Shown: in pieces, positions 1 to 37,882 of the stretch
How positions within the stretch are numbered: the stretch's first letter is position 1
How the letters are laid out: each line of letters begins with the position of its first letter
Origin: Bacillota bacterium
GTDB lineage: Bacteria > Bacillota > Dehalobacteriia > UBA4068
Reading direction: 5' to 3'
Length of the DNA stretch: 40,422 nt
Assembly (NCBI GenBank): GCA_017531315.1
Contig: JAFXLH010000100.1
Coordinates: 1 to 40,422, forward strand
Notes under the pieces: generated by a model
Databases searched by the model: none
What the model saw: the letters and a program-made list of their open reading frames with translations, nothing else
What the model was told of the DNA's origin: nothing
Translations under genes and position numbers: made by a program

Positions 1-1302
1 CTGATCATCGACCATCACGAGCCGATGCTGGTGGATAACGGGGCAGGGGAGGTGGTGCAGCAGCTGCCCGCTGCCGACGCCGTCTGCGACCCCAAGCGCA
101 GCGATTGCCGCTACCCATTCAAGCTGTATTGCGCCGGTGGGCTCTGCTACCGCTTTGCCATGGAGCTGTTCTCGCTGCTCGGCTTTAGCGATAGCGAGCT
201 GGAGAACGAGCTGCTGGCCATGGCCACAATCGCCACCGTCTGTGACCTGGTAGAACTGACCGATGATAACCGCTGGCTGGTGCAGCGCGGTCTGCCGCTG
301 ATCGGCAAGGTGCAAAGCCCCGGCCTGCTGGCGATTTTGGAAAACCGAGAGCTGCTAGGCAAAAATATCACCGCCCACCACATCGGCTACCAGATCGGCC
401 CCTGCATCAACGCCTTTGGCCGTCTGGAAGATGCCAGCATGGCCGTAGAGCTGCTGCTTACCGATGACCCGCGCCGCGCCTATTCGCTTTCCGAAGAGAT
501 GGCACGGCTGAACAATCAGCGCAAATCGCTGACCGAACAGGGCGCGATACTGGCCTTTAGCCAGATCTTGGAAGAAAATCTGGATCAGGATGATGTGCTC
601 GTGGTCTATGAGCCGCTGATCCACGAAAGCGTTGCCGGTATCATCGCCGGCCGCATCAAGGAGCGCTACTATAAGCCGAGCATCGTCATTGCCGGCGAAA
701 AAGATGTGGTTCATGGCTCCTGCCGTTCCATCGAAGGGTACAATATCTTTGCCGGTCTGTCTGCCTGCGCTGACTTGCTGGAAGCATTTGGCGGGCATCC
801 GCTGGCAGCCGGCTTAACGGTAGATAAACATAAAATCGCCGACGTCCGCCGCCGCCTCAACGCCGATTACCGGCAGCAAGCGCCCGATATCGAGCAGCTG
901 ATCCGTATCGACAAACAGCTGCCGCTGGCCACCGTAAATCTGGCTTTGGCCGAGCAGCTGCAGCAGTTTGAACCGTTTGGCAAGGGCAACCCTCCGATCA
1001 ACTTTGCCGAAAAGAACGTCTGCATCAGCAAGATCGTGCAGATGGGCAGCAGCAAAAAGGCGATGCGCTGGAGCTGCCGCGGCGCTACGCTCAGTAAGAC
1101 GGTCGAAGCAGTCTGCTTCGAATCCCGCGATAAGCTGGATAAGCTGCTGAGCAGCCGCTACGGTGAAGGCATTTTCGATCTGCTGCTGCAAAATGCGGCA
1201 GAAGTATATCTGGACCTGATTTACAATGTCAACATCAATGAATTCAACGGGCGTCGTTCTGCGCAGGTGCAAATCGTCGATTACCGCCTGTCCGCCCAGT
1301 AG
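1..1302 (+). CDS. recJ: Single-stranded-DNA-specific exonuclease RecJ, C-terminal ~430 aa (5' end lies outside the window)
   Basis: The frame is open from nt 1, and the window opens on LIIDHHEP (DHH motif). A GGHPLAAG DHHA1-type motif follows. Stop codon at 1300-1302. Confidence 0.85.
   Translation: MIIDHHEPMLVDNGAGEVVQQLPAADAVCDPKRSDCRYPFKLYCAGGLCYRFAMELFSLLGFSDSELENELLAMATIATVCDLVELTDDNRWLVQRGLPLIGKVQSPGLLAILENRELLGKNITAHHIGYQIGPCINAFGRLEDASMAVELLLTDDPRRAYSLSEEMARLNNQRKSLTEQGAILAFSQILEENLDQDDVLVVYEPLIHESVAGIIAGRIKERYYKPSIVIAGEKDVVHGSCRSIEGYNIFAGLSACADLLEAFGGHPLAAGLTVDKHKIADVRRRLNADYRQQAPDIEQLIRIDKQLPLATVNLALAEQLQQFEPFGKGNPPINFAEKNVCISKIVQMGSSKKAMRWSCRGATLSKTVEAVCFESRDKLDKLLSSRYGEGIFDLLLQNAAEVYLDLIYNVNINEFNGRRSAQVQIVDYRLSAQ
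40..51 (+). repeat. Polar motif copy GGGGCAGGGGAG (left of dif, reads toward dif)
   Basis: Exact 12-mer inside recJ (codons ggg gca ggg gag). Confidence 0.9.
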
Positions 1303-1311
1303 GAGTAGCTT

Positions 1312-2640
1312 ATGTTATATCATATCGAAACTTTTGGCTGCCAAATGAACGAAAATGATTCGCCGATCATTGGCGATCTACTGCATTCGCTCGGCCATCA
1401 GCCGGCAGGAGAGATATCCAAAGCGGATATCATCGTCATCAACACCTGCTGTGTGCGAGAGACCGCCGAATCCCGCGCGCTTGGTTTTATCGGCAGCCTA
1501 AAGCACTACAAAGAGTTGAACCCCGGCATCTGCATCGCTGTGTGTGGCTGCATGGCGCAAAAGAGCGATACCGCGGAGGTGCTGCGCAAAAAGTACCGCC
1601 ATGTGGGCGTAGTATGCGGCACTTTTGCCATGGCGCAGCTGCCGTATTACATTGAGCAGTACTTAAGCGATGGCCAGCGCATTTTTGACGTGGAAGAGCG
1701 CTATGACCGCGAAGATATTCAGCGCGATAAGCACTTAAGTGAAAGCGATAATAACTACAAAGCCCAGGTAAACATTAATTATGGCTGCAACAATTTCTGC
1801 TCCTATTGCATCGTGCCGTATGTACGCGGGCGCGAACGCAGCCGCAAGCCGCAGGTGATTTGCGATGAGATTCGTGCGCTGGTGGCGCATGGCTGCCGCG
1901 AGATACAGCTGCTGGGGCAGAATGTCAACTCCTATGGCCACGATCTGGAGGGCAACTGGGACTTTGCGCGGTTGCTGGAAGAGGTTTCCGCCATTGAAGG
2001 GCTGGATCGCATCCGCTTCATGACCTCGCATCCGCGCGACTTCAGCCATCATCTTATCGATACCATTGCCAAGCTGCCCAATGTCTGCCGCCAGTTCCAT
2101 CTGCCGGTTCAGGCCGGCTGCAATCGAATTTTGCAGGAGATGAACAGGGGATATACCAAGGAGTATTATCGCGAGATCCTGGCACATCTGCGCGAAAATT
2201 TCCCGGATGCTACCGTGACTACCGACCTGATCGTCGGTTTCCCGGGAGAAACTGATGAAGACTTCGCAGAAACGCTGGAATTCATTGCCGAATGCCGCTT
2301 TGATGCTGCGTATACTTTCATTTATTCGCGCCGCAGCGGCACTCCGGCCGCGACCATGCCCGATCAGGTTCCGGAAGAAGTGAAGAAACAGCGCCTGCAG
2401 CAGTTGATGGATATACAGAATCCGATCAGCCTGGCGCAGAATGAAAAGTTGGTAGGGAAGACCTTGGTGGTAATGACCGAGGGACCCAGCCGCACCAATG
2501 CGGAAGTTTGGTCGTCCCGCAGCGAGGGCGGCAAAATCGTGCTGTTCCCGGCGGTTGACGGCCTGCAGCCCGGCATGCTTAAAAAAGTCCGCATCGAAAA
2601 AGCACAAACCTGGAATTTGAGCGGCAGCTTGGTAGAATAA
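1312..2640 (+). CDS. miaB: tRNA (N6-isopentenyl-A37) methylthiotransferase MiaB
   Basis: 442 aa with N-terminal FGCQMN motif, radical-SAM CNNFCSYCIVP motif and a C-terminal TRAM-like end. An AGGAG RBS lies 6 nt upstream of the ATG. Confidence 0.93.
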   Translation: MLYHIETFGCQMNENDSPIIGDLLHSLGHQPAGEISKADIIVINTCCVRETAESRALGFIGSLKHYKELNPGICIAVCGCMAQKSDTAEVLRKKYRHVGVVCGTFAMAQLPYYIEQYLSDGQRIFDVEERYDREDIQRDKHLSESDNNYKAQVNINYGCNNFCSYCIVPYVRGRERSRKPQVICDEIRALVAHGCREIQLLGQNVNSYGHDLEGNWDFARLLEEVSAIEGLDRIRFMTSHPRDFSHHLIDTIAKLPNVCRQFHLPVQAGCNRILQEMNRGYTKEYYREILAHLRENFPDATVTTDLIVGFPGETDEDFAETLEFIAECRFDAAYTFIYSRRSGTPAATMPDQVPEEVKKQRLQQLMDIQNPISLAQNEKLVGKTLVVMTEGPSRTNAEVWSSRSEGGKIVLFPAVDGLQPGMLKKVRIEKAQTWNLSGSLVE

Positions 2641-2658
2641 AAATACCGACAAAGTCAA

Positions 2659-2691
2659 AGAGCCTGCAGATTTTGCTGGCTCTGATTTTTT
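2659..2691 (+). terminator. Intrinsic terminator after miaB
   Basis: Hairpin AGAGCCtGCA-gattt-TGCtGGCTCT (2659-2683) followed by GATTTTTT. Confidence 0.8.
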
Positions 2692-2758
2692 ACAAAAATT
2701 TTTGGGGGAGAGGTCGCTCGTGTGCATTTCACACGGCACCCTAAAATTTCAACACCTA

Positions 2759-2786
2759 AGTTTACATAATGTACATTATGAGAAGT
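2759..2786. other. dif: Xer recombination site dif (chromosome dimer resolution site; marks the replication terminus)
   Basis: Plus strand reads AGTTTACATAA-TGTACA-TTATGAGAAGT, and the inner 16 bp (2765-2780) is a perfect palindrome. The minus strand reads ACTTCTCATAA TGTACA TTATGTAAACT. As I recall it, B. subtilis dif is ACTTCCTAGAA TATATA TTATGTAAACT: one arm matches 11/11 and the other 8/11. E. coli dif is GGTGCGCATAA TGTATA TTATGTTAAAT. The site lies in a 360-bp gene-free gap, and both gene orientation and a polar motif converge on it. Confidence 0.85.
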
Positions 2787-2790
2787 TGAT

Positions 2791-2829: not shown

Positions 2830-2839
2830 AAAACAAAAA

Positions 2840-3000: not shown

Positions 3001-3291
3001 CTATTTTTCCGGGATCAGCAATACGTCGCCCACGCGCAGATTTGCACTCTGCAGACCGTTGATCTCTTTAACTTCGTAGATGGCGGCGCGAATATCGCCT
3101 TTATAGTCATAATGTTCGCTTACCAAGGACCACAGCGTATCACCGGAGCTTACGGTAATGGTTTGCATTACGCGAGCCTCGTCATTGCTGGCGCCGGCAA
3201 CGCCGCTGAATGCCATGACTACCAGCAGTACCATCAGGAATAAACCTGCAAAGGCTTTGTAATTGATTCTTCTATTATATTTGGCCAGCAT
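3001..3291 (-). CDS. LysM-domain, single-pass membrane protein; YneA-like SOS-induced cell-division inhibitor candidate
   Basis: 96 aa with an N-terminal TM helix (AFAGLFLMVLLVVMAFSGV) and a C-terminal LysM domain (SSGDTLWSL...VGDVLLIP). It is divergent from lexA and sits behind a consensus promoter carrying LexA boxes. RBS is AGGAGG. Confidence 0.8.
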   Translation of the reverse strand: MLAKYNRRINYKAFAGLFLMVLLVVMAFSGVAGASNDEARVMQTITVSSGDTLWSLVSEHYDYKGDIRAAIYEVKEINGLQSANLRVGDVLLIPEK

Positions 3292-3321
3292 TGCTTTCGC
3301 CTCCTACTCTACTCTTTCAAT

Positions 3322-3335
3322 CGAACATCTGTTCT
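3322..3335. promoter_or_regulatory. LexA (Cheo/SOS) box 1
   Basis: CGAACATCTGTTCT against the Gram-positive consensus CGAACRNRYGTTYC. It lies just downstream of the -10 of the LysM-gene promoter. Confidence 0.8.
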
Positions 3336-3343
3336 ATGGCTAA

Positions 3344-3372
3344 ATTATATTCGAATATTTGTTCGATGTCAA
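3344..3372 (-). promoter_or_regulatory. Sigma-A promoter of the LysM (YneA-like) gene
   Basis: Minus strand reads TTGACA-17 nt-TATAAT, with both hexamers perfect. The spacer contains LexA box 2. Confidence 0.8.
3352..3365. promoter_or_regulatory. LexA (Cheo/SOS) box 2
   Basis: CGAATATTTGTTCG, inside the spacer of the LysM-gene promoter. Confidence 0.8.
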
Positions 3373-3381
3373 GAGAAAAAT

Positions 3382-3395
3382 AGAACAAATGTTTG
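3382..3395. promoter_or_regulatory. LexA (Cheo/SOS) box 3 (lexA autoregulation)
   Basis: AGAACAAATGTTTG, overlapping the -35 region of the lexA promoter. Confidence 0.7.
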
Positions 3396-3421: not shown

Positions 3422-3455
3422 GGGTATGTCCCCAATACAAAAAGGAGGCAAACTT

Positions 3456-4082
3456 ATGGATTATATCGGTTTGACCGAGCAGCAGGCTCGTATTCTTGAT
3501 TTTATTAAGCAGGAACTGCGCGATAAGAAGTTCCCGCCCTCTGTGCGCGAGATTTGTGATGCGGTAGGGCTGCGTTCGCCTTCCACCGTGCATCTGCACC
3601 TGAACACGCTGGAAAGCAAGGGCTATATCCGCCGTCACCCCGGCCAGCAGCGCGCGCTGGAAGTTATCGAAGAGATCGAAAGCACCAGCACCGTTACCAG
3701 CAAAGAAATGGTCGATATCCCGATCATCGGCAAAATCTCCGCCGGCCTGCCGATGCTGGCCGAAGAACATGTGGAAGATTATTTCCCCGTGCTGCTGGGC
3801 TATCTCCATTCCAATAAGCAGCTGTTTATGCTGCGCGTTTCCGGCGAAAGCATGATCGAAGCCGGTATTCATGACGGCGATTTGCTGATCGTGGAAGAAG
3901 CCAGCAGCGCCCGCAACGGTGAAATTATCGTGGCGCTGGTTGATGACGAAGCTACCGTCAAGACCTTCTACCGCGAGCTGAACTGCATCCGCCTGCAGCC
4001 GGAAAACTCCACTATGGCGCCGATCATCGTAGACCGCTGCGATATCATCGGTAAGCCGATCGGCCTGTTCCGCCGCTTCTGA
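3456..4082 (+). CDS. lexA: LexA repressor
   Basis: Starts MDYIGLTEQQARILDFIK at ATG 3456, which is preceded by AAAGGAGG. The ORF-track start at 3393 has no RBS. N-terminal winged helix and C-terminal S24 peptidase domain (VSGESM...). Confidence 0.95.
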   Translation: MDYIGLTEQQARILDFIKQELRDKKFPPSVREICDAVGLRSPSTVHLHLNTLESKGYIRRHPGQQRALEVIEEIESTSTVTSKEMVDIPIIGKISAGLPMLAEEHVEDYFPVLLGYLHSNKQLFMLRVSGESMIEAGIHDGDLLIVEEASSARNGEIIVALVDDEATVKTFYRELNCIRLQPENSTMAPIIVDRCDIIGKPIGLFRRF

Positions 4083-4094
4083 CTCCCCTGCCCC
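4083..4094 (-). repeat. Polar motif copy GGGGCAGGGGAG
   Basis: Exact 12-mer on the minus strand. Intergenic, immediately after the lexA stop. Confidence 0.9.
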
Positions 4095-4103
4095 GTATAA
4101 TGC

Positions 4104-4139
4104 AAAAGCAGGTAGACTTAATCGTCTACCTGCTTTTTT
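4104..4139. terminator. Bidirectional terminator between convergent lexA and ynbB-like genes
   Basis: A perfect 14-bp stem, AAAAGCAGGTAGAC / GTCTACCTGCTTTT, with A and T runs on either side. Confidence 0.85.
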
Positions 4140-5401: not shown

Positions 5402-5481
5402 AGTAACCTCCAAGTGTTAAGCATAACATATTATAATTACACTTTAACGCCATTTTTCCTGCCAAAGTGACAGATTTAGCT

Positions 5482-5493
5482 CTCCCCTGCCCC
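5482..5493 (-). repeat. Polar motif copy GGGGCAGGGGAG
   Basis: Exact 12-mer on the minus strand. Intergenic, next to the hfq terminator. Confidence 0.9.
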
Positions 5494-5497
5494 AAGC

Positions 5498-5521
5498 AAA
5501 AAGCCCGGAAAACCGGGCTTT
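5498..5521 (-). terminator. Intrinsic terminator after hfq
   Basis: Minus strand reads AAAGCCCGG-tttt-CCGGGCTTT followed by TTGCTT. Confidence 0.75.

Positions 5522-8752: not shown

Positions 8753-8753
<1 letters not shown>
6736..8753 (-). pseudogene. mutL: DNA mismatch repair protein MutL, reading frame interrupted in the interdomain linker (true frameshift or sequencing error)
   Basis: The N-terminal GHKL ATPase ORF (7515-8753, VKELVENAIDSGAT) and the C-terminal dimerisation/endonuclease ORF (6736-7554, DQHAAHERVLYE at about 7201-7236) are in different frames. The C-terminal frame stays open upstream to at least ~7740. Judged by which frame reads sensibly, the switch lies at about 7625-7665. 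The start ATG at 8753 overlaps the mutS stop (TAATG). Confidence 0.65.
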
Positions 8754-11350
<2,597 letters not shown>

Positions 11351-12014: not shown

Positions 12015-12098
12015 AGCAACCTCCATATTCCGATTTAACATTTATAAATTCGCTGCTATTTGCCGTTTTTCCTGCACTATTTTGCCAAAGGAGCAATT

Positions 12099-12872: not shown

Positions 12873-13288
12873 AACTGCTGGTAAGCGCCTGTCTGCTGGG
12901 CCACAACTGCAAATATAACGGCGGCAACAACGATAATGCCAAAGTGCACCGCTTTTTGGCGGATAAAGACTATATCATCTTCTGCCCGGAATCAGCCTCC
13001 GGTCTCCCCTGCCCGCGTGATCCGGCGGAAATCCAGGGTGAAGCGGTTATCGACCGCAGCGGCAAAGATGTGACGGAATACTTCCACCGCGGCGCGCAAA
13101 TGGCGCTGGAACTGTGCCAAAAGCACGGCATCGATACCGCCCTGCTCAAAGAAAGCAGCCCGTCCTGCGGCTCGCATCTCATCTACGACGGCACTTTCAG
13201 CAAAAAGAAACTGCCCGGCCGGGGCATCACCGCCCGTCTGCTGGCCGCTCACGGCATCCGGCTGCTTTCTGAAGAGGATCTCGACTGA
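12869..13288 (+). CDS. DUF523 protein (TudS-type [4Fe-4S] thiouracil desulfidase family)
   Basis: 139 aa with SACLLGHNCKYNGG, CPE..GLPCPR and SSPSCGS, the three Cys-containing motifs typical of DUF523. Its ATG overlaps the ttcA-like stop (ATGA at 12869-12872). Confidence 0.8.
   Translation: MKLLVSACLLGHNCKYNGGNNDNAKVHRFLADKDYIIFCPESASGLPCPRDPAEIQGEAVIDRSGKDVTEYFHRGAQMALELCQKHGIDTALLKESSPSCGSHLIYDGTFSKKKLPGRGITARLLAAHGIRLLSEEDLD
13004..13015 (-). repeat. Polar motif copy cGGGCAGGGGAG
   Basis: 11/12 match, antisense to the plus-strand DUF523 gene. Confidence 0.9.
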
Positions 13289-15562: not shown

Positions 15563-16402
15563 TCAAGCCTCCAACTGCTGCCAAATACGGCAAAAATCAT
15601 CCAGTTTAAGCTGCTCGGCGCGCACATTGGCAGCCAAACCCGCGCCGATGAGTTTTTCCTGCCAGAACGCCTTATCTTTGCCCAGATAGCCGTTTAGGAC
15701 ATTGGGCAGAGTCTTGCGGCGCTGACTGAAAGCGGCTTCGATAAGCGCAAACAGCGGCTGCTGCGGTACATCCGGCAGCTCTTCGCGGCGGGTCAGCGTG
15801 ATTACAGCCGAATCCACCGCCGGCGCCGGCAGGAAGCAGCCGGGCGGCAGCTCAAATTCGTAGCGGCTCACCGCATAATAGTCGATCATCAATGCCAGCG
15901 GCGAGCTTTCCTTGCGGTTTGCCGTCAGCTTTTTCGCCACTTCTTTTTGCATCATCAGACACATCTTATGCCAGGGCAGCGGCAAAAAGCAGCGAATCAG
16001 CGGCGAAGTGATGTAATAGGGCAGATTGCCCACGATGCAGCACTTCTCTCTCCCCTGCTGCTGCATGAATGCAGCATAGTCAAAGGTGAGCGCATCGGCA
16101 TTGATGACATGAACGAGATCATTTTCGGCAAAAAACTGCTCCAGATGGCGGCAGAAGCGCTTATCCAGTTCTACCAATGCGGTAGGCAGCTCTTTTTTCG
16201 CCAGCAGCTGGCTGATAGCGCCCAGACCGGGGCCGATCTCGAACAGGCAGGCTTGCGGCTCGGCAGCGGCCAGCGCGGCGATCTGCTGCGCTGCTGCGGC
16301 ATCGATGAGGAAGTTCTGCCCCAGATCATGATTGGCCTGCCATTTGTGCGCCTGCAGGATCGCTTCGGTAGCGGCGCGTCCGGCAATCAGTTTTTCGCTC
16401 AT
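15563..16402 (-). CDS. rsmA: 16S rRNA (adenine1518/1519-N6)-dimethyltransferase RsmA/KsgA
   Basis: LGQNFLID and EIGPGLGA SAM-binding motifs. Sits in the conserved tatD-yabE-ksgA neighbourhood. Confidence 0.95.
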   Translation of the reverse strand: MSEKLIAGRAATEAILQAHKWQANHDLGQNFLIDAAAAQQIAALAAAEPQACLFEIGPGLGAISQLLAKKELPTALVELDKRFCRHLEQFFAENDLVHVINADALTFDYAAFMQQQGREKCCIVGNLPYYITSPLIRCFLPLPWHKMCLMMQKEVAKKLTANRKESSPLALMIDYYAVSRYEFELPPGCFLPAPAVDSAVITLTRREELPDVPQQPLFALIEAAFSQRRKTLPNVLNGYLGKDKAFWQEKLIGAGLAANVRAEQLKLDDFCRIWQQLEA

Positions 16403-18738: not shown

Positions 18739-20700
18739 TCAGCCGATGCGGGCACCGGGGGTCATACCGGGGACTTCCACTACCTGCAGGGTCTCCCCTA
18801 CCAGAGCGGAAAGCAGCATGCCCTGAGATTCGATGCCGCGGATCTTGCGCGGAGCGAGGTTGGCGATGAGCACCAGATGCTTGCCCACCAGTTCTTCCGG
18901 AGCATAGTGCATAGCGATGCCGGAAAGTACGGTGCGCTCTTCCAGACCCATATTGAGGCGGAATTTGAGCAGCTTATCGGCCTTCGGCACTTTTTCGCAT
19001 TCCAGAACTTCGACCACGCGCAGATCGAGCTTGGCGAAGTCTTCGATGCCAATCATATCGGTGCTAAGCGGTTCCAGCTGGCTTTCTTCTTCGGCAGCAG
19101 CCTCTTCAGCAGCAGCGGCGGCATCAATGGCGGCAGCTTCTTCAGCAGCGGCAGCTTCCATGGCAGCGATATCGATGCGCGGGAACAGCGGTTCGCCGCG
19201 GTCGATCTTGGTATCGGCAGGGAAAGAGCCCCAAGTGAGGGATTCCCAAGTGTGCAGGTCGGTGCGGTCGGTGATGCCCAGCTGCTTCCAGACCTTTTCG
19301 GCCAGGGTGGGCATGACCGGGGAGATCATGATGGTGGTGAGACGGACGACTTCTACCATGTTGTAGAGTACGCTGGCCAGTTTGCCCTTTTCGCCGGCCT
19401 TATTCAGCGCCCACGGAGCGGCATCATCAATGTACTTGTTGGCTTTGGCGACCAGCTTCCACAGCTCGGCGATGGCATTGGCCCATTCCATCTTGTCCAT
19501 CAGCTCGGCAAAGCGGGCGGGAGTGGCCTTGGCCAGCTCGATCAGCTCGGCATCAAATTCGGTAGGTTCACCGGGAGCCAGTACGATGCTGCCCTGGAAC
19601 TTATCGATCATACCGGTGGAACGGGAGAGCAGATTGCCGTAGTCATTAGCCAGGTCTACGTTGATACGCAGAGCGAGGTTATGCTCGTTGTAGTTGCAAT
19701 CCTGACCGTAGGGCATTTCGCGCATCAGGAAGTAACGGATGGCGTCAACGCCGTAGCGTTCGCAGAGGACGAAGGGATTGACTACATTGCCCTTGGATTT
19801 GCTCATCTTGTCATTGTCGATGAGTACCCAGCCGTGACCCAGAACGCACTTGGGCAGCGGCAGTTCGGCAGCCATCAGCATGATCGGCCAGATGATGGTA
19901 TGGAAGCGGATGATGTCTTTACCGACGAGATGTACATCGGCCGGCCAGAACTTGTTGTAGAGGCTGCCGTCGCCGGTATTGGCCAGCGCGGAGATGTAGT
20001 TGGAAAGAGCATCGAACCAGACGTATACGACATGCTTGCCGTCAAAGGGAACCGGGATGCCCCAGTTGAAGGTAGTGCGGGAGATGCACAGATCTTCCAG
20101 GCCCTGCTTGACGAAGTTGACCATTTCGTTGCGGCGGCTTTCCGGACGGATGAAGTCAGGGTTGGCTTCGATGAATTCCAGCCAGCGATCCGCATATTTG
20201 CTCATTTTGAAGAAGTAACTTTCTTCCTGCATACGTTCTACGGGGCGGCCGCAGTCCGGGCAGATATGCTCTTCGCCTACCTGACGTTCGGTGAAGAAAG
20301 CTTCGTCGGGAGTGCAGTACCAGCCTTCGTAGGTGGACTTATAGATATCGCCCTTATCGTAGATCTTCTGGAACAGATCCTGAACATATTTGATATGACG
20401 GTCATCGGTAGTACGGATGAAATCATCATAGTCGATGTGCAGCAGTTCCCACAGCTTTTTGAAGTTTTCGCTGATCTTATCGACGAATTCCTGCGGTTCT
20501 ACACCGGCGGCAACGGCACGGCGCTGGATCTTCTGGCCGTGTTCATCGGTACCGGTAAGGAAGTAGGCATCATAACCGCGCATCTTTTTATATCTGGTCA
20601 TGGTATCGGCCGCAACAGTGGTATATGCGTGGCCGATATGCGGATTATCACTGGGATAGTAAATGGGGGTAGTAATGTAAAACGTAGGCTTCTCAGTCAT
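18739..20700 (-). CDS. metG: Methionine--tRNA ligase with C-terminal tRNA-binding (Trbp111/EMAP-like) domain
   Basis: PHIGHAYT (HIGH) and KMSKSKGN motifs and a CPDCG zinc knuckle. An Ala/Glu-rich linker precedes the C-terminal OB domain. RBS is AAGGAGG. Confidence 0.97.
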   Translation of the reverse strand: MTEKPTFYITTPIYYPSDNPHIGHAYTTVAADTMTRYKKMRGYDAYFLTGTDEHGQKIQRRAVAAGVEPQEFVDKISENFKKLWELLHIDYDDFIRTTDDRHIKYVQDLFQKIYDKGDIYKSTYEGWYCTPDEAFFTERQVGEEHICPDCGRPVERMQEESYFFKMSKYADRWLEFIEANPDFIRPESRRNEMVNFVKQGLEDLCISRTTFNWGIPVPFDGKHVVYVWFDALSNYISALANTGDGSLYNKFWPADVHLVGKDIIRFHTIIWPIMLMAAELPLPKCVLGHGWVLIDNDKMSKSKGNVVNPFVLCERYGVDAIRYFLMREMPYGQDCNYNEHNLALRINVDLANDYGNLLSRSTGMIDKFQGSIVLAPGEPTEFDAELIELAKATPARFAELMDKMEWANAIAELWKLVAKANKYIDDAAPWALNKAGEKGKLASVLYNMVEVVRLTTIMISPVMPTLAEKVWKQLGITDRTDLHTWESLTWGSFPADTKIDRGEPLFPRIDIAAMEAAAAEEAAAIDAAAAAEEAAAEEESQLEPLSTDMIGIEDFAKLDLRVVEVLECEKVPKADKLLKFRLNMGLEERTVLSGIAMHYAPEELVGKHLVLIANLAPRKIRGIESQGMLLSALVGETLQVVEVPGMTPGARIG

Positions 20701-23895: not shown

Positions 23896-23914
23896 ACATA
23901 TTAAACAGATAATA

Positions 23915-25480: not shown

Positions 25481-26430
25481 TTCTTATACACTTTCTGCCC
25501 CTCACGGGCTTTGGCGGGATTAAGCACGATGGTCTTACCGGCGACGATGCCGCTTACCTGCAGATATTCGCCCAGGTCGCGCTCCACTTCTACCAGCGCA
25601 TAAGCCAGACGACCGTTGTGCTTGTAGTAGATGCCGCAGTTGCCGTCAGCATCCAGATAAACCGCCTGATACGGCACCATGATGCCGCTGACGGTTTCCG
25701 TGACCACTTCTACCTGCTGCTCGCGAATGCTCAGCAATACATCGTAACTGGAATCGATCTTGACCACCAGATAATGACAATCATCGCCGTTCAGCTTATT
25801 GATGATGCTGCCCTTGATCAGCGTGCCGTCTTCCAGGTAGAGGCTCAGCTTGCTGCCCAGCAAATGCAGATCGGCATCACCGGGAAGCTGCAGGTAGAGC
25901 TGATAATCGCGCAGATTGTCAATGATCTTGGCGCGGCCGCTGTTGGAAGTGATGATCTCTTCCGTATCATCGGCATCGTCAGCCACCGGCTCGGCATTAA
26001 GCTCGTCAAAGATGGCATCCAGCTCTTTCAGCGTCGGTTTTTCGCCCGGCGCATGCTCCTCCCAGCCATCCAGCGTATAGGAGACCACGCCGCTGTACTT
26101 GGCGGTGAGCATGGTATGCACGCCGCCTTCGCTGACGATATGGGCGATGACCGTGCCATCCTTCACCCTCTCCCCTGCCGCGATAACAGGAGTCACCTCG
26201 CCGATGACGCCGGAGCGCAGCAGATGCTCATCGCGCAGCACCAGCATCTGAGCAGGCTCGGTCACTTCCATACTGGCTTGCTGAGAAGTGCCGAATTGCA
26301 GGCTGCGGTACTGAACAAAGCTGATCAGCGAGGTAATACCAAAGTAGCAGATAAACAGCAGCAGCAGCGCAGCGGCAATGTCTACCCAGCGGGTACGGTG
26401 TATTCTCTTGCGCGAATGCTGCTCAGTCAT
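25477..26430 (-). CDS. Membrane-anchored protein with HlyD/biotinyl-lipoyl-like barrel-sandwich features; function unknown
   Basis: 317 aa with a single N-terminal TM helix and a lipoyl-like segment (GEVTPVIAAGERVKDGTVIAHI). RBS is AAGGAG. Overlaps the yggS start by 4 nt. Confidence 0.5.
   Translation of the reverse strand: MTEQHSRKRIHRTRWVDIAAALLLLFICYFGITSLISFVQYRSLQFGTSQQASMEVTEPAQMLVLRDEHLLRSGVIGEVTPVIAAGERVKDGTVIAHIVSEGGVHTMLTAKYSGVVSYTLDGWEEHAPGEKPTLKELDAIFDELNAEPVADDADDTEEIITSNSGRAKIIDNLRDYQLYLQLPGDADLHLLGSKLSLYLEDGTLIKGSIINKLNGDDCHYLVVKIDSSYDVLLSIREQQVEVVTETVSGIMVPYQAVYLDADGNCGIYYKHNGRLAYALVEVERDLGEYLQVSGIVAGKTIVLNPAKAREGQKVYKK
26170..26181 (-). repeat. Degenerate polar motif copy gcGGCAGGGGAG
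   Basis: 10/12 match with the core 7/8, inside the HlyD-like gene. Confidence 0.6.
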
Positions 26431-27075: not shown

Positions 27076-27161
27076 TTTGGTTGAAGAATGGCAATTATCC
27101 GCCCTATCTCGCCTGTCATATGCAGGCAGCATTTTACATAAGCTGTACCGAGGTGAAAACG

Positions 27162-29999: not shown

Positions 30000-30602
30000 T
30001 TATTTATTATTCAGCCACCAATCATAGAGTTTGCTGCGCAGCAGCAGCTCATCCCCTGCCCCGCCGGTAGATGCCGCCACGGCCTGTTCTTCCGCCACCA
30101 CATCCACAAAGCAGAGCGGCGGAAACAGTACGCACCACCAGTTATGCCCGGCGCCGCTGCCCAGCACGATGCGCAGCGCCTCGTATTCTCCCTGCGGCAG
30201 CACGGTACCATCGTAGCTGATAGCGGGAAACTGTGCCACCTCCAGCCGGGCGCTGGCGGTATAGGCGGCGCGTCCCGCGATATACTCGTTGCACAGCTGC
30301 TCCAGCTGCGGAATCATGGCGTGCACCTGCTGTTTGGCGGCAGCTTTGTCAGGCGCGGCAGCCAGCGTTTCCGCCAGCTCTGCCACCACCAGATCGCGCA
30401 CCTCCAGCTTCAGCTGCTGATCGTAGGCAGAGTCGCTATCGGCCAGTATATGCAGGCGCAGCGGGTAACTGTCGCCGGTATAGTCTTCGTAATAGACGGT
30501 ATCTGCCGCGGCGAAATAATGCATCCAGCCCGCCGCGCCCAGCAGCAGCGCCAAACCAGCCAGCAGATATCGCTTCGTCTTATGCTTTGTAATATGCTTC
30601 AT
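30000..30602 (-). CDS. spoIIR: Stage II sporulation protein R (SpoIIR)
   Basis: 200 aa with a signal/TM segment, LRLHILADSDS and NWWCVLFPPLCF signature motifs. Confidence 0.92.
   Translation of the reverse strand: MKHITKHKTKRYLLAGLALLLGAAGWMHYFAAADTVYYEDYTGDSYPLRLHILADSDSAYDQQLKLEVRDLVVAELAETLAAAPDKAAAKQQVHAMIPQLEQLCNEYIAGRAAYTASARLEVAQFPAISYDGTVLPQGEYEALRIVLGSGAGHNWWCVLFPPLCFVDVVAEEQAVAASTGGAGDELLLRSKLYDWWLNNK
30051..30062 (-). repeat. Polar motif copy GGGGCAGGGGAt
   Basis: 11/12 match, inside spoIIR. Confidence 0.9.
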
Positions 30603-33352: not shown

Positions 33353-34414
33353 TTATTTATTCTGCGCCCATCTCCCTTTCCCTGCCTTGCCTCGGCCAAC
33401 TTTTCTACATCCAGCGGCAGGCATACCGATGCGGCAGGCCAGCAGCAACCCCAGCAAAGAGAGCAGCGCCACCGCATTACGCACGCCGTCCGTATCCGGG
33501 TTGGCCAGCAGCACGTAGCCAAGGTAGCTGCTGCCATACAAGGCGGCGCAGACCGCGGCCAGCAGCTTATCGTCCGTCTTTCGCCGCAGCGCCGCCGCCA
33601 GCCAGTCCGTCAGCTGACGGCACAGCAGCACCACATATACCAGCAGCACCGTCAATACCGCCAGCGCCCCCAGCAGCTCCAGGCGCGATACGGCAGCATC
33701 CCACTGCATCATTCTTAAGGCACGCACAGTAGGATAGCCCTCCAGCCGCAGCGTATCGCCAAAAAGCAGCGCATTGCGGCCGATGCAGATAATACAGTAG
33801 CCGATGCCCAGCCCCATGCCCCGGCGCAGAGCCTTGCTTTTCCCCTGCCCCGCTTCGCTAAACAGGCCCAGCGTCAGCGGCAGCATGCCGTAGATCAGCG
33901 CCGCGTAATAGCCAGCGGTGATCAGCACATCCGCCCAATCCGCACCCGCCAGCGGCAGCAGGCGGCGCGGGTGATAATCGGGCATCAGCAGCAGCGTGTC
34001 ACCGATAACCGCCACCACAAAGACGAACACCACGATAGAAGCCGTGCGCTCGATAGCCCGCCGCCCCAGCCGCGCCGAAAAGAAGGTGAAACAGGCAAAG
34101 GTGAGCGCATAGACCAGCACCGGCGTATTACGCATCTCAAAGGCCGACCAGAAGGATAGCATCAGCAGCACATAATAGGCGCTGAGCAGCAGCAAAACAG
34201 CAGCAAGCAGCATCTTTAGCCGCCGCTGACCGCTATCGCTCAGGCAACTGTACAGCCACACCATCAACGGCGCGGGCAATACGGCGATAATGATGGAGAG
34301 CCACACATGATGCCCCAGATGGCTGCCGATGGCATTGACCGGCAGCAGGCTGCCCAGCAGTACCACAGCTACCAGCGCCGTGCTTTGTACAGTTTTGGCA
34401 TTGATTTCTCTCAT
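33353..34414 (-). CDS. Spore germination protein, GerAB/GerKB-type (APC-superfamily permease-like B subunit)
   Basis: About 353 aa with about 10 TM helices. Located in an operon with A and C subunits. ATG 34414 is preceded by GGGGAG. Confidence 0.8.
   Translation of the reverse strand: MREINAKTVQSTALVAVVLLGSLLPVNAIGSHLGHHVWLSIIIAVLPAPLMVWLYSCLSDSGQRRLKMLLAAVLLLLSAYYVLLMLSFWSAFEMRNTPVLVYALTFACFTFFSARLGRRAIERTASIVVFVFVVAVIGDTLLLMPDYHPRRLLPLAGADWADVLITAGYYAALIYGMLPLTLGLFSEAGQGKSKALRRGMGLGIGYCIICIGRNALLFGDTLRLEGYPTVRALRMMQWDAAVSRLELLGALAVLTVLLVYVVLLCRQLTDWLAAALRRKTDDKLLAAVCAALYGSSYLGYVLLANPDTDGVRNAVALLSLLGLLLACRIGMPAAGCRKVGRGKAGKGRWAQNK
33840..33851 (-). repeat. Polar motif copy GGGGCAGGGGAa
   Basis: 11/12 match, inside the gerAB-type gene, in a different reading frame from the other coding copies. 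Confidence 0.9.
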
Positions 34415-34445
34415 CGGCTCTCCCCTGTTGCTCATTTTGGTTCTT

Positions 34446-35591
34446 TTATTGCTCCTTGAACTTGATGCGGCAGTCCACATCACAGATAAGCTCTATCTGC
34501 CGCCACCCCACTTCATCATCTATCAGCTGCTGCCACAGGCGATAGTCCTTGCGTTCCAGCTGGGCATTCACATAGAGGAAGTCATTATCCATCTCCCGGG
34601 CCAGCTCCCACAGCCGCTGCAGACGCGCTGTGAAATATGCTTCTGCTTCCTGCGAGAGCTCCTCCAGCTGCGGTTCTTGGGGCGAAGTTTCTGTATCCGT
34701 GGGCCGCAGCACCGCCTTTACCTGCAATTTCAGCTGCGGCACATCGCCATCGGTGAGCATTTTGCGCGTCAGCTTCCAGTCGGTGACAGAATAGAGGTCT
34801 TCGCCCAGCTGCACCACCATACCCACCGCCTTGCCGCGCCACAGCAGCACATCGTCGGTATATTCATCATCCAGTACCGCCACCAGCCTTCCCTGAGCAT
34901 CCGCCGCGGCAAAGCCCGACAGCTCCACTTCCTGCACCTGCCTGGCCAGCGGCAGCGATTGATCGGAGCTCTCCCCGGCGGAAGAGAGCGCCGCCACCTC
35001 GCTTTTGCACAGGGCGATGGTGGGCAGCAGCGTTCCGGTGCGCTCGGCCAGCTGGCTTTCCATATAGCTTTGCACGCTCAGCTTATCGGTCACCGCCTCG
35101 ATGCGCCTGCTGCCGTGATTGAGCAGCTGCACCACACCTAAGCCCAGATATGGCGAAAGACCGATATCCGCCTCCATAACATCCGTGATATCGTCTTCTG
35201 CCACAATGATATAAACAAGCGGATTGATCTGCTGATCGTTGAAAAAGGATTCGACTATCGGCGTTATCCCCTGCTCCGCGGCCTTTTCGCTGATGATAAG
35301 CACCTGCAAATGCCCCCAGAACAGCTGGCGGTTCAGCTGCTTGCCCATCCGCCGCAGCGCATCTTTGATATTGGCGCCGCTGGTGTGGAAGATGCGGTCA
35401 TTGCCGCTGGAGACGTTGGCCGTCACCTCGGCTATCTCCGCCGCTATCAGCACCCGTTGTTCCGCCGGGGCAGCTTCATCGTAGTCGATGCCCACGGCCA
35501 GCACCACAGCTAAGTCCTGCACCTCGCTCTTATCCCAGCAGCCGCCCAGCAGCAGCGTCAGCGGCAGCAACAGCAGCAATAGCTTACGCAT
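34446..35591 (-). CDS. Spore germination lipoprotein, Ger(x)C family
   Basis: Lipobox LLLGGC|WDK followed by AVVLAVGIDY, typical of GerAC. Its start overlaps the gerAA-type stop (ATGCGTAA). Confidence 0.88.
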   Translation of the reverse strand: MRKLLLLLLPLTLLLGGCWDKSEVQDLAVVLAVGIDYDEAAPAEQRVLIAAEIAEVTANVSSGNDRIFHTSGANIKDALRRMGKQLNRQLFWGHLQVLIISEKAAEQGITPIVESFFNDQQINPLVYIIVAEDDITDVMEADIGLSPYLGLGVVQLLNHGSRRIEAVTDKLSVQSYMESQLAERTGTLLPTIALCKSEVAALSSAGESSDQSLPLARQVQEVELSGFAAADAQGRLVAVLDDEYTDDVLLWRGKAVGMVVQLGEDLYSVTDWKLTRKMLTDGDVPQLKLQVKAVLRPTDTETSPQEPQLEELSQEAEAYFTARLQRLWELAREMDNDFLYVNAQLERKDYRLWQQLIDDEVGWRQIELICDVDCRIKFKEQ

Positions 35592-37071: not shown

Positions 37072-37098
37072 AAGCACCTCCGCAACCGTTATTGCCCT

Positions 37099-37128
37099 CA
37101 TCTTGCCCGCTTTACCGCTCATATATAC
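37099..37128 (-). promoter_or_regulatory. Candidate sigma-G-type promoter of the germinant receptor operon
   Basis: Minus strand reads GTATA-18 nt-CAAGATG. The -35 matches perfectly and the -10 matches 5/7 against CATXHTA. Confidence 0.3.
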
Positions 37129-37130
37129 CA

Positions 37131-37156
37131 AAAGACGAGCCAAACGGCCCGTCTTT
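37131..37156 (-). terminator. Terminator-like hairpin after the unknown membrane protein gene
   Basis: Minus strand reads AAAGACGGGCC-gttt-GGCTCGTCTTT followed by TGGTATAT. The trailing U-tract is short. Confidence 0.5.
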
Positions 37157-37162
37157 GTTGTC

Positions 37163-37882
37163 TTATGCAAAAAACAGATAATGTAATTTATCGAAGCACA
37201 GCCCCAGCGCAAGCAGCATGGTGTAGAGGCTGCACAGCCAGTCTATCTTATGATGCAGCTCGATCAGCGCGATATCGTTCCACTCGGCAAAGGGCTGCTC
37301 CATCAGGCTGCGGCAGCGTTTGAAATAATCCCAAATGGGAAAGATTATTGCCAGCGTAAACAGCGCCGCCGGCGGCAAAACGCCGCAGATCACGGTGATA
37401 AGCAGCACAATGTAGGCATCGGCAATGCATTCCAGCTGCGCCCAGAAGACCCAGCTGCTCTTGGGCGCATTGGCGAGGAAGAATCGCGGCAGGGTGATCA
37501 TGTTCTCTTCCACATCCGGATGGATGCGCGCCAGATCAGAGGCATAGTAGCAGCCGGCCTGGAAGAACATCAGGCTCACCCCTGCCCAAAGCGGCGGCCA
37601 GGCAAAGCTGCCGGTGGAAGCCACGTAAGCCACGGTGGAATTGACCGGCCCCAGCAGCACCGCCGAGCAGAACAGCTGCACGATCGGCACCATACGCTGC
37701 GGCGCTACGGCGGCGGCACGGCCAAAAGCGGTGGCCAGCACAAAGACCAGCAGGCGGTCCAGCACCAGCAACACTATCGGCACGCCAAACATGGCGATGG
37801 CACCACGCGACCAGATGATATCACCGCTGATATCGGCCAGCAAAACGCCGATCAGCGTAGAATAAAAAGCAATGCGTATCAC
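37163..37882 (-). CDS. Hypothetical polytopic membrane protein (about 7 TM helices), family not recognised
   Basis: 239 aa from GTG 37882, which lies 7 nt after AAAGGAG. Strongly hydrophobic segments run throughout. I recognised no catalytic motif. Confidence 0.6.
   Translation of the reverse strand: MIRIAFYSTLIGVLLADISGDIIWSRGAIAMFGVPIVLLVLDRLLVFVLATAFGRAAAVAPQRMVPIVQLFCSAVLLGPVNSTVAYVASTGSFAWPPLWAGVSLMFFQAGCYYASDLARIHPDVEENMITLPRFFLANAPKSSWVFWAQLECIADAYIVLLITVICGVLPPAALFTLAIIFPIWDYFKRCRSLMEQPFAEWNDIALIELHHKIDWLCSLYTMLLALGLCFDKLHYLFFA
37577..37588 (-). repeat. Polar motif copy tGGGCAGGGGtg
   Basis: Core 8/8 and 9/12 overall, inside the unknown membrane protein gene. Confidence 0.8.

What the first reader, a model, noticed from the sequence alone, without database searches (positions are those of the whole stretch)
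40..37588. Strand-polar G-rich motif GGGGCAGGGGAG whose orientation flips at dif: candidate FtsK/SpoIIIE-orienting (KOPS/SRS-like) or Chi-like sequence
The core GGGCAGGG occurs 8 times exactly and once as a 7/8 variant, and the copies share longer flanks. The full 12-mer GGGGCAGGGGAG is exact at 40-51, 4083-4094 and 5482-5493. The 10-mer GGGCAGGGGA occurs 7 times. The single copy left of the dif site (2759-2786) is on the plus strand. All eight copies to the right (4083, 5482, 8942, 13004, 26170, 30051, 33840, 37577) are on the minus strand. Every copy therefore reads 5'->3' toward dif, about one per 5 kb. A simple base-composition estimate predicts roughly one chance hit per strand for the 8-mer and far fewer for the 10-mer. 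Two copies are intergenic, one is antisense to its gene and one is in a different reading frame, so this is a DNA-level signal rather than a protein motif. The core fits the E. coli KOPS pattern GGGNAGGG. The B. subtilis SpoIIIE recognition sequence is GAGAAGGG, so this would be a different word for this lineage. Caveats: five co-oriented coding copies are read as xGG-GCA-GGG-GAx (Gly-Ala-Gly-Glu/Asp), so codon or dipeptide bias must be excluded. With only ~2.7 kb left of dif, the flip rests on a single copy.
Basis: partly seen in the sequence, partly recalled or inferred. Interest (0 to 1): 0.75.

Follow-up and report, generated by a model that had tools for sequence, protein, structure and literature searches.

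The report
Polar G-rich word pointing to dif
A 12-base G-rich DNA word, GGGCAGGGGAGA, always points toward the chromosome's dimer-resolution site (dif) in an uncultured spore-forming Clostridia lineage, so it is most likely the direction signal for the FtsK/SpoIIIE DNA pump; that kind of signal is well known, but this word and this lineage are new.

Summary
GGGCAGGG occurs 8 times: one copy on the + strand left of dif (2759-2786) and seven on the - strand to its right. Shuffles that preserve dinucleotides, codons or amino acids give 0.5-1.9 copies and never reach 8.

Coding copies use rare codons (GGG is 9% of Gly, GCA 10% of Ala). Two copies are intergenic, just past terminators, and one is antisense. 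This is therefore a DNA-level signal.

It is GGGCAGGGGAGA, or (G/A)GNAGGGGAG(A) across the family. With up to 2 mismatches the window has 14 copies, all pointing to dif.

The flip no longer rests on one copy. Sister-strain contigs carry three + copies left of dif. Eight dif-containing loci from family-level relatives (31-56% GC) give 35 copies pointing to dif (20 left, 15 right) and none opposite. A blind scan of those relatives ranks AGGGGAG (30:1) as the most skewed 7-mer.

The enrichment is absent from 148 more distant Clostridia/Negativicutes loci. FtsK proteins of the family have a gamma domain with an unusual recognition helix, IGNPRAxR.

Best reading: a lineage-specific FtsK/SpoIIIE-orienting (KOPS/SRS-type) word. 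A Chi-like role is not excluded. Genome-wide skew and protein binding were not tested.

The parts
2759..2786 (-). dif-type XerC/XerD recombination site (ACTTCTCATAA-TGTACA-TTATGTAAACT); motif polarity and gene orientation both switch here
   Evidence: 23/28 identical to B. subtilis dif, with an identical right-hand 11-bp arm (PMC3025954). Related dif sites lie in the same place after miaB in L009, L010, L084 and L085, and in L172 one gene (a cation ATPase) further downstream. Genes are + to the left and mostly - to the right.
41..52 (+). Motif copy GGGCAGGGGAGG (1 mismatch; exact GGGCAGGGGAGA in sister strains), sense in recJ, read GGG-GCA-GGG-GAG
   Evidence: The same codon position carries GGGCAGGGGAGG in recJ of the 40%-GC relative L084.
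1403..1414 (+). Motif copy CGGCAGGAGAGA (2 mismatches; CGGCAGGGGAGA in sister strains), sense in miaB
2450..2461 (+). Degenerate copy TGGTAGGGAAGA (3 mismatches here; TGGTAGGGGAGA in three sister-strain contigs), 0.3 kb left of dif
4082..4093 (-). Motif copy GGGCAGGGGAGT. Intergenic, just 3' of the terminator hairpin of the Met-gamma-lyase gene on the - strand; overlaps the last base of the lexA stop codon on the + strand
5481..5492 (-). Exact 12-mer GGGCAGGGGAGA. Intergenic, 7 nt 3' of the hfq terminator hairpin (5500-5521) on the - strand
8941..8952 (-). Exact 12-mer, sense in mutS (R-A-G-E)
13003..13014 (-). Exact 12-mer, antisense inside a + strand (lagging-strand) gene for a 2-thiouracil desulfurase; still points to dif
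16049..16060 (-). Copy CAGCAGGGGAGA (2 mismatches), sense in the rRNA adenine dimethylase gene, frame 0 (Q-Q-G-R)
18792..18803 (-). Copy TGGTAGGGGAGA (2 mismatches), sense in metS
26169..26180 (-).
30050..30061 (-). Copy GGGCAGGGGATG (2 mismatches), sense in spoIIR
33839..33850 (-). Copy GGGCAGGGGAAA (1 mismatch), sense in a gerAB-like gene, in a different frame (G-Q-G-K)
35265..35276 (-). Copy GAGCAGGGGATA (2 mismatches), in a gerAC-like gene
37576..37587 (-). Copy GGGCAGGGGTGA (1 mismatch), sense in a hypothetical - strand gene (37163-38029)
33371..33382 (-). Weak copy GGGAAAGGGAGA (2 mismatches, lacks the AGGGGAG core); may be background
   Evidence: Permuted words give about 2 leading-strand hits at this stringency.
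34419..34430 (-). CAACAGGGGAGA (3 mismatches, carries the AGGGGAGA core); followed by ATG after 5 nt, so it may double as a ribosome-binding site

Best explanation
The window spans the replication terminus of an uncultured spore-forming Clostridia bacterium. Both chromosome arms carry a lineage-specific polar word, GGGCAGGGGAGA (family consensus (G/A)GNAGGGGAG(A)), about once per 3-5 kb, always on the leading strand and reading 5'->3' toward dif.

The most likely function is that of KOPS in E. coli and SRS in B. subtilis. The winged-helix gamma domain of the septum-bound FtsK/SpoIIIE translocase reads the word on double-stranded DNA. This fixes the direction of pumping, so the motor always moves toward dif. 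There it clears the terminus from the closing division or sporulation septum and activates XerCD to resolve chromosome dimers.

Shown here: over-representation at the DNA level, near-complete polarity, a switch at dif, conservation of the word (not of individual sites) across a family, and the presence of gamma-domain FtsK in that family.

For: 1. Over-representation is not explained by composition, codons or peptides. Eight copies are seen against 0.5-1.9 expected, and the 10-mer has 7 against 0.02-0.15. Coding copies use codons that make up 9-10% of their class. Sub-words of the 12-mer are the top words in an unbiased scan.

2. Polarity. With up to 2 mismatches to the 12-mer, the window has 14 leading and 0 lagging copies, and relatives have 35:0. 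400 composition-matched permuted words average 2.1 (window) and 4.6 (relatives) leading hits, never reach the observed counts, and show a background leading skew of only 0.61-0.81.

3. Switch at dif. It holds in the species itself (three + copies left of dif in L081-L083). It also holds in L009, L010, L084, L085, L004 and the later-fetched L172, all of which carry copies on both arms. Pooled, relatives have 20 left-arm and 15 right-arm copies, all pointing to dif.

4. Independent rediscovery. In relatives alone (131.7 kb), AGGGGAG (30:1) is the most skewed of all 7-mers and AGGGGAGA (14:0) is second among 8-mers.

5. Polarity follows the replication arm, not the gene strand or reading frame. 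Copies lie antisense inside lagging-strand genes (window 13003; lexA in L009 and L010, Pfam; L084 736 inside a - strand MerR gene). Both intergenic copies lie beyond terminators. All three frames are used. Only 4 of 40 AGGGGAG hits look like ribosome-binding sites.

6. Resemblance to KOPS. The first 8 bases fit GGGNAGGG, and the position that varies among relatives is the same N. The dif-region criteria of Nolivos et al. (at least 90% skew, at least 1 per 40 kb) are exceeded (PMC3384302). PMC13342612 calls the orientation switch at dif a hallmark of KOPS.

7. Reader. FtsK proteins with a PF09397 gamma domain are encoded in L007 and on the same 1.86-Mb contig as L084. The counterparts of the E. 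coli KOPS-recognition residues R1300, E1303 and E1306 (PMC2680272) are R, D and E.

8. The organism makes spores (spoIIR and gerA genes), so a SpoIIIE-type directional pump is needed.
Against: - No binding or translocation data exist. Chi sites share over-representation, leading-strand bias and hence a sign change at the terminus.
- Genome-wide skew, and the rise in density and skew toward the terminus that defines AIMS/KOPS, could not be tested because no genome of the species was retrievable.
- One sample 64-87 kb from dif in the 40%-GC relative gave GGGCAGGG 1 leading: 2 lagging and no near-exact 12-mer. The core AGGGGAG was still 5:1 there.
- One near-copy with an extra G (GGGCAGGGGGAG) lies in the wrong orientation in L172.
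- The word is 11-12 bp, longer than any characterised KOPS or SRS.
- The family's gamma helix replaces the Y-N of E. coli IGYNRAAR with N-P, so recognition cannot simply be assumed to work as in E. coli.
- The window organism's own ftsK was not identified. P0134 comes from the same metagenome sample, but its codon usage differs.
- Most genes are co-oriented with replication, so only a few copies separate arm polarity from gene-strand polarity.
Confidence: 0.62

Rival explanations
1. Chi-like crossover hotspot. The word would be read as single-stranded DNA by a translocating AddAB/RecBCD-type helicase-nuclease, which would switch from degradation to RecA loading. Its leading-strand bias would protect DNA between a broken fork and the origin.
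For: Chi sites are also over-represented and enriched on leading strands, so they also change sign at the terminus (PMC3384302 introduction). The density of 1 per 3-5 kb is closer to E. coli Chi, about 1 per 4.5 kb by my recollection, than to KOPS (1 per 11.6 kb in the E. coli dif region).
Against: - The skew near dif is essentially 100% (49:0 pooled). [quoted passage not shown]
- The Firmicute Chi sites I recall (AGCGG, GAAGCGG, GCGCGTG) are 5-7 nt and unrelated in sequence.
- This word contains the KOPS pattern, with the same degenerate position.
- Presence of AddAB in the lineage was not examined.
Confidence: 0.15
2. A polar architectural word read by some other, unidentified terminus- or replication-associated factor, for example one that unloads SMC, traps forks or organises the terminus domain, rather than by FtsK or AddAB.
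For: The word is 11-12 bp, longer than known KOPS/SRS. It is lineage-specific. Most AIMS have no assigned function (PMC5993296).
Against: No candidate reader was found. Known terminus-binding systems, from my own knowledge (matS/MatP, RTP-Ter, XerD-binding XDS sites), are palindromic or sparse rather than one copy per 3-5 kb. The overlap with GGGNAGGG would then be a coincidence.
Confidence: 0.13
3. By-product of coding. A favoured peptide (Gly-Ala-Gly-Glu), codon bias, purine-rich sense strands or Shine-Dalgarno-like sequences, combined with co-orientation of genes and replication, would give an apparent polar word with no DNA-level function.
For: Five window copies share the frame xGG-GCA-GGG-GAx. 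Most copies are on the sense strand of leading-strand genes. Composition-matched words are themselves 61-81% leading. A few AGGGGAG hits sit in front of start codons.
Against: - Shuffles that keep the amino-acid sequence or the codon content give 0.5-0.8 copies against 8 observed.
- GGG and GCA are rare codons.
- All three frames, antisense copies and post-terminator intergenic copies occur.
- No permuted word reaches the observed counts.
- Flanks are random, so this is not a repeat element.
- The word keeps its polarity in genomes from 31 to 56% GC.
Confidence: 0.04

Closest known systems
E. coli / gamma-proteobacterial KOPS (FRS), 5'-GGGNAGGG-3', read by the FtsK gamma domain
   Same: The first 8 bases of the window word are GGGCAGGG. 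The family-level variable position coincides with the N of KOPS. Copies are on the leading strand pointing to dif, the skew in the dif region is at least 90%, and polarity switches at dif. The FtsK proteins of the family have a gamma domain that aligns without gaps to the E. coli and P. aeruginosa gamma structures 2J5P and 2VE8.
   Different: The information extends 3-4 bases further 3' (GAGA), and that 3' part (AGGGGAG) carries most of the polarity in relatives. The density is 2-4 times higher. The host is a Firmicute, a phylum in which Nolivos et al. report that no common AIMS motif was found. The recognition helix is IGNPRA[AGS]R instead of IGYNRAAR. Nothing has been tested biochemically.
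B. subtilis SRS, 5'-GAGAAGGG-3', read by SpoIIIE
   Same: It is a G/A-rich polar word in a spore-forming Firmicute that directs a FtsK-family pump (PMC3384302, PMC3936747). The window organism has sporulation genes. One relative carries GAGAAGGGGAGA, which contains the SRS octamer.
   Different: The consensus is different. The window has no enrichment of GAGAAGGG. The order of sub-elements is AGGG-GAGA rather than GAGA-AGGG.
Lactococcus lactis KOPS, 5'-GAAGAAG-3'
   Same: It is the precedent that KOPS words diverge in sequence and length between Firmicute families, alongside changes in FtsK gamma (PMC3384302).
   Different: It is an A-rich heptamer in a low-GC genome that uses XerS/difSL. Here the word is a G-rich 11-12-mer next to a classical 28-bp dif.
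AIMS (architecture imparting sequences, Hendrickson and Lawrence)
   Same: It is a strand-biased word, dense and almost fully biased near the terminus, and shared by related taxa (PMC5993296).
   Different: The defining rise in abundance and bias from origin to terminus could not be measured here.
Chi sites (RecBCD/AddAB)
   Same: Over-represented, with a leading-strand bias.
   Different: See the rival explanation: the skew is far stronger, the sequence is KOPS-like, and the word is longer.

Membership tests
KOPS/SRS (FtsK/SpoIIIE-orienting polar sequences) | Short word significantly over-represented relative to oligonucleotide composition | tested here: met
   8 copies against 0.5-1.9 expected; the 10-mer has 7 against 0.02-0.15; top word in an unbiased scan.
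KOPS/SRS (FtsK/SpoIIIE-orienting polar sequences) | At least 90% of copies on the leading strand in the dif region (Nolivos 2012, criterion iii) | tested here: met
   Window 8/8 (8-mer) and 14/14 (12-mer, up to 2 mismatches). Relatives 35/35. AGGGGAG 39:1.
KOPS/SRS (FtsK/SpoIIIE-orienting polar sequences) | At least one copy per 40 kb in the dif region (criterion ii) | tested here: met
   About 1 per 5 kb (exact 8-mer) to 1 per 2.9 kb (12-mer, up to 2 mismatches) over 40 kb.
KOPS/SRS (FtsK/SpoIIIE-orienting polar sequences) | Polarity inverts at dif | tested here: met
   Window and sister strains. L009, L010, L084, L085, L004 and L172 carry copies on both arms. Pooled: 20 left-arm and 15 right-arm copies, none opposed.
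KOPS/SRS (FtsK/SpoIIIE-orienting polar sequences) | High skew and over-representation over the whole genome, changing sign only at oriC and dif (criterion i) | tested here: inconclusive
   No genome of the species could be fetched. One distal sample in a relative (L168, 64-87 kb from dif) gave AGGGGAG 5:1 but bare GGGCAGGG 1:2.
KOPS/SRS (FtsK/SpoIIIE-orienting polar sequences) | Lineage encodes FtsK/SpoIIIE with a C-terminal winged-helix gamma domain | tested here: met
   Met in relatives only. L007 carries ftsK, P0127 lies on the same contig as L084, and all hits carry PF09397. The window organism's own gene was not identified.
KOPS/SRS (FtsK/SpoIIIE-orienting polar sequences) | Gamma-domain recognition residues as in KOPS readers (E. 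coli R1300, E1303, E1306; helix IGYNRAAR) | tested here: inconclusive
   The counterparts of R1300, E1303 and E1306 are R, D and E. However, Y1295-N1296 are replaced by N-P in all 34 closest FtsK proteins.
KOPS/SRS (FtsK/SpoIIIE-orienting polar sequences) | Specific binding by the gamma domain and orientation-dependent control of translocation or Xer activation | not testable with these tools
   Needs EMSA/ITC and recombination or triplex-displacement assays.
AIMS | Abundance and strand bias increase from origin to terminus | not testable with these tools
   Only terminus-proximal DNA is available. Family loci without a dif show about 1 hit per 7 kb against about 1 per 3 kb near dif, but they come from different genomes.
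Chi (RecBCD/AddAB) | Over-represented, leading-strand-biased word | tested here: met
   Shared with KOPS, so it does not discriminate.
Chi (RecBCD/AddAB) | Attenuates AddAB/RecBCD nuclease in one orientation; cognate enzyme present | not tested
   No AddAB gene in the window. A biochemical assay is needed.
dif / XerCD site | 28 bp, two 11-bp arms around a 6-bp spacer, similar to the phylum consensus, located at the replichore junction | tested here: met
   23/28 identical to B. subtilis dif. Conserved after miaB in relatives. Gene orientation and motif polarity switch there. Single occurrence per genome could not be tested.
DNA uptake sequences (USS/DUS) | Abundant 9-12-mer present in both orientations, often as inverted pairs in terminators | tested here: not met
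   No copy in the opposite orientation on either arm. Copies are single, beside terminators rather than within them.
Dispersed repeat element (REP/MITE) | Sequence similarity extends beyond the core into the flanks | tested here: not met
   Base frequencies are random outside the 12 positions.
Coding or ribosome-binding-site by-product | Count and skew reproduced when codons or peptides are preserved; fixed frame; sits in front of start codons | tested here: not met

The most novel reading that the evidence does not exclude
An uncultured Clostridia family has co-evolved a new reader-word pair. Its FtsK/SpoIIIE gamma domain begins its recognition helix with Asn-Pro (IGNPRAxR) instead of Tyr-Asn/Thr. 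It reads an extended 11-12-bp polar word, (G/A)GNAGGGGAG(A), whose discriminating part lies 3' of the canonical KOPS octamer. This would be the longest FtsK guide word known. It would also offer a natural test of how three gamma domains read DNA, because a KOPS-like 5' half is retained while specificity moves to the 3' half.
Probability: 0.4. Interest if true: 0.6.

Novelty: new member of a known kind. Interest (0 to 1): 0.5.

Why it matters
FtsK guide words have been established experimentally in only a few lineages: gamma-proteobacteria, B. subtilis and L. lactis. Nolivos et al. (PMC3384302) note that no common word emerged for Firmicutes.

This finding supplies a clear, testable candidate for a family of uncultured gut, rumen and bioreactor Clostridia, defined from terminus DNA alone. 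It comes paired with a distinctive gamma-domain helix that could be expressed and tested directly.

In practice, the word together with dif gives a marker for orienting and checking metagenome-assembled contigs from this family. A wrongly oriented block near the terminus would flag a misassembly or a recent insertion.

It does not reveal a new kind of system.

Tried and rejected
- Exact look-ups of the window's MiaB and LexA found nothing.
- The genome-collection scan found no relative above 64% MiaB identity, and the metagenome scan nothing above 57%. A genome-wide count for this species was therefore impossible.
- I tried to extend the left arm through SecF. The only usable contig added about 1 kb (L171). 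The look-up of cluster member P0249, which sits on an 8.7-kb contig, failed.
- P0025, on a 246-kb contig that also carries an FtsK, returned gene calls but no DNA.
- I tried to assign the window organism's own FtsK. P0134 comes from the same JGI sample as L082, but its codon usage differs (GAA 91% against about 50-60%), so I did not assign it.
- I recalled N1296 as a residue whose mutation abolishes KOPS recognition. The paper I could read names R1300, E1303 and E1306, so I rely only on those.
- GC skew in the window is weak and locally irregular. I did not use it as evidence for the terminus.
- Rejected explanations: peptide or codon by-product, ribosome-binding site, repeat element and uptake sequence (see the membership table).

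Full report
**What is in the window**

Pfam and Rfam annotation shows a Firmicute terminus region. On the + strand lie recJ (1-1302, 5' end cut by the window) and miaB (1312-2640). A 28-bp dif-type site follows at 2759-2786.

To the right of dif, genes run almost entirely on the - strand:
- a LysM gene, a Met-gamma-lyase gene, hfq, miaA, mutL, mutS and minC
- metS, and ileS with a T-box leader
- sepF, nrdR and an SLH-domain nucleotidase
- spoIIR, a sigma factor, a PHO4 transporter and a gerA operon

The + strand exceptions to the right of dif are lexA, 12060-13288, 27081-27425, tyrS and the last gene.

Read on the - strand, the dif site is ACTTCTCATAATGTACATTATGTAAACT. It is 23/28 identical to B. 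subtilis dif, and the right-hand 11-bp arm is identical (the reference sequence is in PMC3025954).

The organism is an uncultured spore-former. The nearest species representative in GTDB has only 64% MiaB identity. The same species (98% DNA identity) turns up only on three short JGI contigs and one short ENA contig.

**Check of the observation**

GGGCAGGG occurs 8 times, once on + left of dif and seven times on - right of it. Dinucleotide shuffles give 1.9 +/- 1.3, with a maximum of 6.

I built a curated gene map covering 93% of the window and shuffled it in two ways: synonymous codons within genes (peptides kept) and whole codons within genes. The leading-strand expectation was 0.82 and 0.55. 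None of 2000 shuffles reached 8. For GGGCAGGGGA the expectation was 0.02-0.15 against 7 observed.

Codon usage argues against a coding origin. GGG is 9% of Gly codons and GCA is 10% of Ala codons.

An unbiased scan of all 8-, 9- and 10-mers on the leading strand ranks sub-words of one 12-mer first at every length.

**The real unit**

Aligning the copies shows a sharply bounded 12-base word, GGGCAGGGGAGA, with random flanks.

With up to 2 mismatches the window holds 14 copies, all on the leading strand: 2 left of dif and 12 right of it. There are none on the lagging strand.

Four hundred permutations of the same 12 letters average 2.1 leading hits, with a maximum of 12 and a background leading skew of 0.61-0.70.

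**Does the flip rest on one copy?**

It does not. In three sister-strain contigs the left arm carries three + strand copies. Each is closer to the consensus than in the window:
- GGGCAGGGGAGA at window position 41
- CGGCAGGGGAGA at 1403
- TGGTAGGGGAGA at 2450

The first - strand copy follows at 4082.

**Relatives**

miaB is linked to dif in several family-level relatives (MiaB 49-61% identical, 31-56% GC): L004 (weak dif), L005, L007, L009/L010, L084, L085 and L137.

After fixing the prediction I fetched L172 (61% identity). Its dif candidate lies exactly where gene orientation switches. All 10 near-copies obey the rule, 4 on + to the left and 6 on - to the right.

Pooled over eight relatives, the 12-mer with up to 2 mismatches is 35 leading: 0 lagging, with 20 copies on left arms and 15 on right arms. 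Before L172 and L004 were added, the pooled count was 22:0. Against that set, permuted words averaged 4.6 leading hits with a maximum of 17 and a background skew of about 0.77.

L085 has two exact 12-mers within 1.5 kb left of dif, in frames 0 and 2 of miaB. L010 has an exact 12-mer inside lexA, antisense to it.

A blind scan of all 7-mers in the relatives alone (131.7 kb) returns AGGGGAG (30:1) as the single most skewed word. AGGGGAGA (14:0) is second among 8-mers.

Only 4 of 40 AGGGGAG hits are in ribosome-binding-site-like positions.

The family logo is (G/A)-G-N-A-G-G-G-G-A-G-(A). The variable N is at the same place as in E. coli GGGNAGGG, and the window species prefers C there.

The enrichment is lineage-specific. 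In 163 kb of family loci there are 7 hits with up to 1 mismatch, against 0.78 for permuted words. In 2.08 Mb from 148 more distant Clostridia and Negativicutes there are 14, against 7.3 +/- 4.

**Arm polarity or gene polarity?**

Most copies are on the sense strand simply because most genes follow replication. The informative cases all side with the replication arm:
- window 13003 is antisense in a lagging-strand gene
- the copies in lexA of L009 and L010 are antisense
- L084 736 is antisense in a - strand MerR gene left of dif
- both intergenic window copies lie a few bases beyond intrinsic terminators on the - strand, largely outside transcripts

**Cautions**

In relatives, bare GGGCAGGG without the GA(G) extension is 6 leading: 2 lagging.

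In L168, a 22-kb piece 64-87 kb left of dif on the same 1.86-Mb contig as L084, the bare octamer is 1:2 and there is no near-exact 12-mer. The AGGGGAG core is still 5:1 there, and two of those five hits are probably ribosome-binding sites.

A near-copy with one extra G (GGGCAGGGGGAG) lies in the wrong orientation in L172.

Genome-wide behaviour remains untested.

**The likely reader**

L007 encodes FtsK about 11 kb from its dif. P0127 is the FtsK on the same contig as L084. Both carry the PF09397 gamma domain.

The gamma domain aligns without gaps to the solved E. coli and P. aeruginosa gamma domains. The recognition helix reads RIGNPRA[AGS]R-[LI]-[IMV]-D-x-L, where E. coli has RIGYNRAARIIEQME.

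All 34 FtsK proteins closest to that of L007 have the N-P pair. The remaining 86 of the 120 listed (Desulfitobacterium and others) have Y-T, Y-S, Y-N or Y-A.

[quoted passage not shown] By my count from the C-terminus, they correspond to R, D and E in the family.

This fits a functional but altered reading head. It does not prove which word that head reads.

**Comparison with what is known**

The properties match the published KOPS prediction criteria for the dif region: at least 90% leading-strand skew and at least one copy per 40 kb (PMC3384302). They also match the hallmark switch of orientation at dif (PMC13342612).

The word differs from E. coli KOPS by a 3' extension that carries most of the polarity. 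It differs from B. subtilis SRS (GAGAAGGG) and L. lactis KOPS (GAAGAAG) in sequence.

Chi remains a formal alternative because it shares leading-strand bias. The near-total skew next to dif, the KOPS-like pattern and the length make it less likely.

**Verdict**

This is a real, DNA-level, strand-polar word that inverts at dif and is conserved as a word, not as individual sites, across an uncultured Clostridia family.

It is best explained as that family's FtsK/SpoIIIE guide sequence (confidence about 0.6). That makes it a new member of a known kind, with an unusually long consensus and an unusual gamma helix that make it a good experimental target.

Noticed in passing
window 6736-8783 (- strand): mutL is split into two overlapping ORFs in different frames. 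7515-8783 holds the ATPase and DNA_mis_repair domains, and 6736-7554 holds MutL_C. The junction lies in a Pro/Gln/Ala-rich linker. In the relatives L084 and L172 mutL is a single gene of 642-647 aa. This is either a frameshift (pseudogene, possible mutator) or an assembly error.
   Followed up: partly
window 3322-3395, between the LysM gene (3001-3291, -) and lexA (3456-4082, +): Three SOS-box-like sites (CGAACATCTGTTCT, CGAATATTTGTTCG, AGAACAAATGTTTG) are spaced 30 bp apart in the divergent promoter region. There is also a perfect -35/-10 promoter for the LysM gene at 3372-3344. The layout recalls the B. subtilis yneA-lexA SOS module (from my own knowledge). In this family the module sits within 1 kb of dif.
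   Followed up: partly
window 23691-23896 (- strand): A T-box leader (Rfam RF00230, 95 bits) lies upstream of ileS (20847-23615).
   Followed up: no
window 4082-4138 and 5481-5521: Both intergenic motif copies lie 7-12 nt downstream of an intrinsic-terminator hairpin on the same (-) strand, after the Met-gamma-lyase gene and after hfq. This may be a tolerated landing place or a coincidence.
   Followed up: no
window 41-52, 1403-1414 and 2450-2461, compared with L081, L082 and L083: At all three left-arm copies the window sequence differs from the three sister-strain contigs by one base, each time away from the consensus (A>G, G>A, G>A). Overall divergence is only 2%.
   Followed up: no
whole window, leading strand: Other fully polar words: GCGAAAAA 12:0 (21:0 pooled with relatives), GCTGGTGC 11:0, CTGGTGC 15:0 and GGAGCTG 15:0. 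The CTG-rich ones probably reflect codon usage (CTG is 74% of Leu codons in mutS). GCGAAAAA, and GCTGGTGC (one base from E. coli Chi, GCTGGTGG), were not examined as Chi candidates.
   Followed up: no
P0121-P0159 (FtsK proteins; L007 2-1798, L168 10001-12397): A coherent clade of FtsK/SpoIIIE proteins has IGNPRA[AGS]R in place of the usual IGY[NTS]RAAR at the start of the gamma-domain recognition helix. It accounts for 34 of the 120 nearest homologues.
   Followed up: partly
L172 3783 (- strand, left arm) and L084 18733 (+ strand, right arm): These are the only wrongly oriented exact GGGCAGGG octamers next to a dif. One reads GGGCAGGGGGAG (one extra G) and the other GGGCAGGGCCTC (no extension).
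   Followed up: partly
L084 8581 compared with window 41: The recJ copy sits at the same codons (N-G-A-G-E, GGG-GCA-GGG-GAG) in a relative with 40% GC and 58% MiaB identity. It is the only copy found at an orthologous position; all others have turned over.
   Followed up: partly
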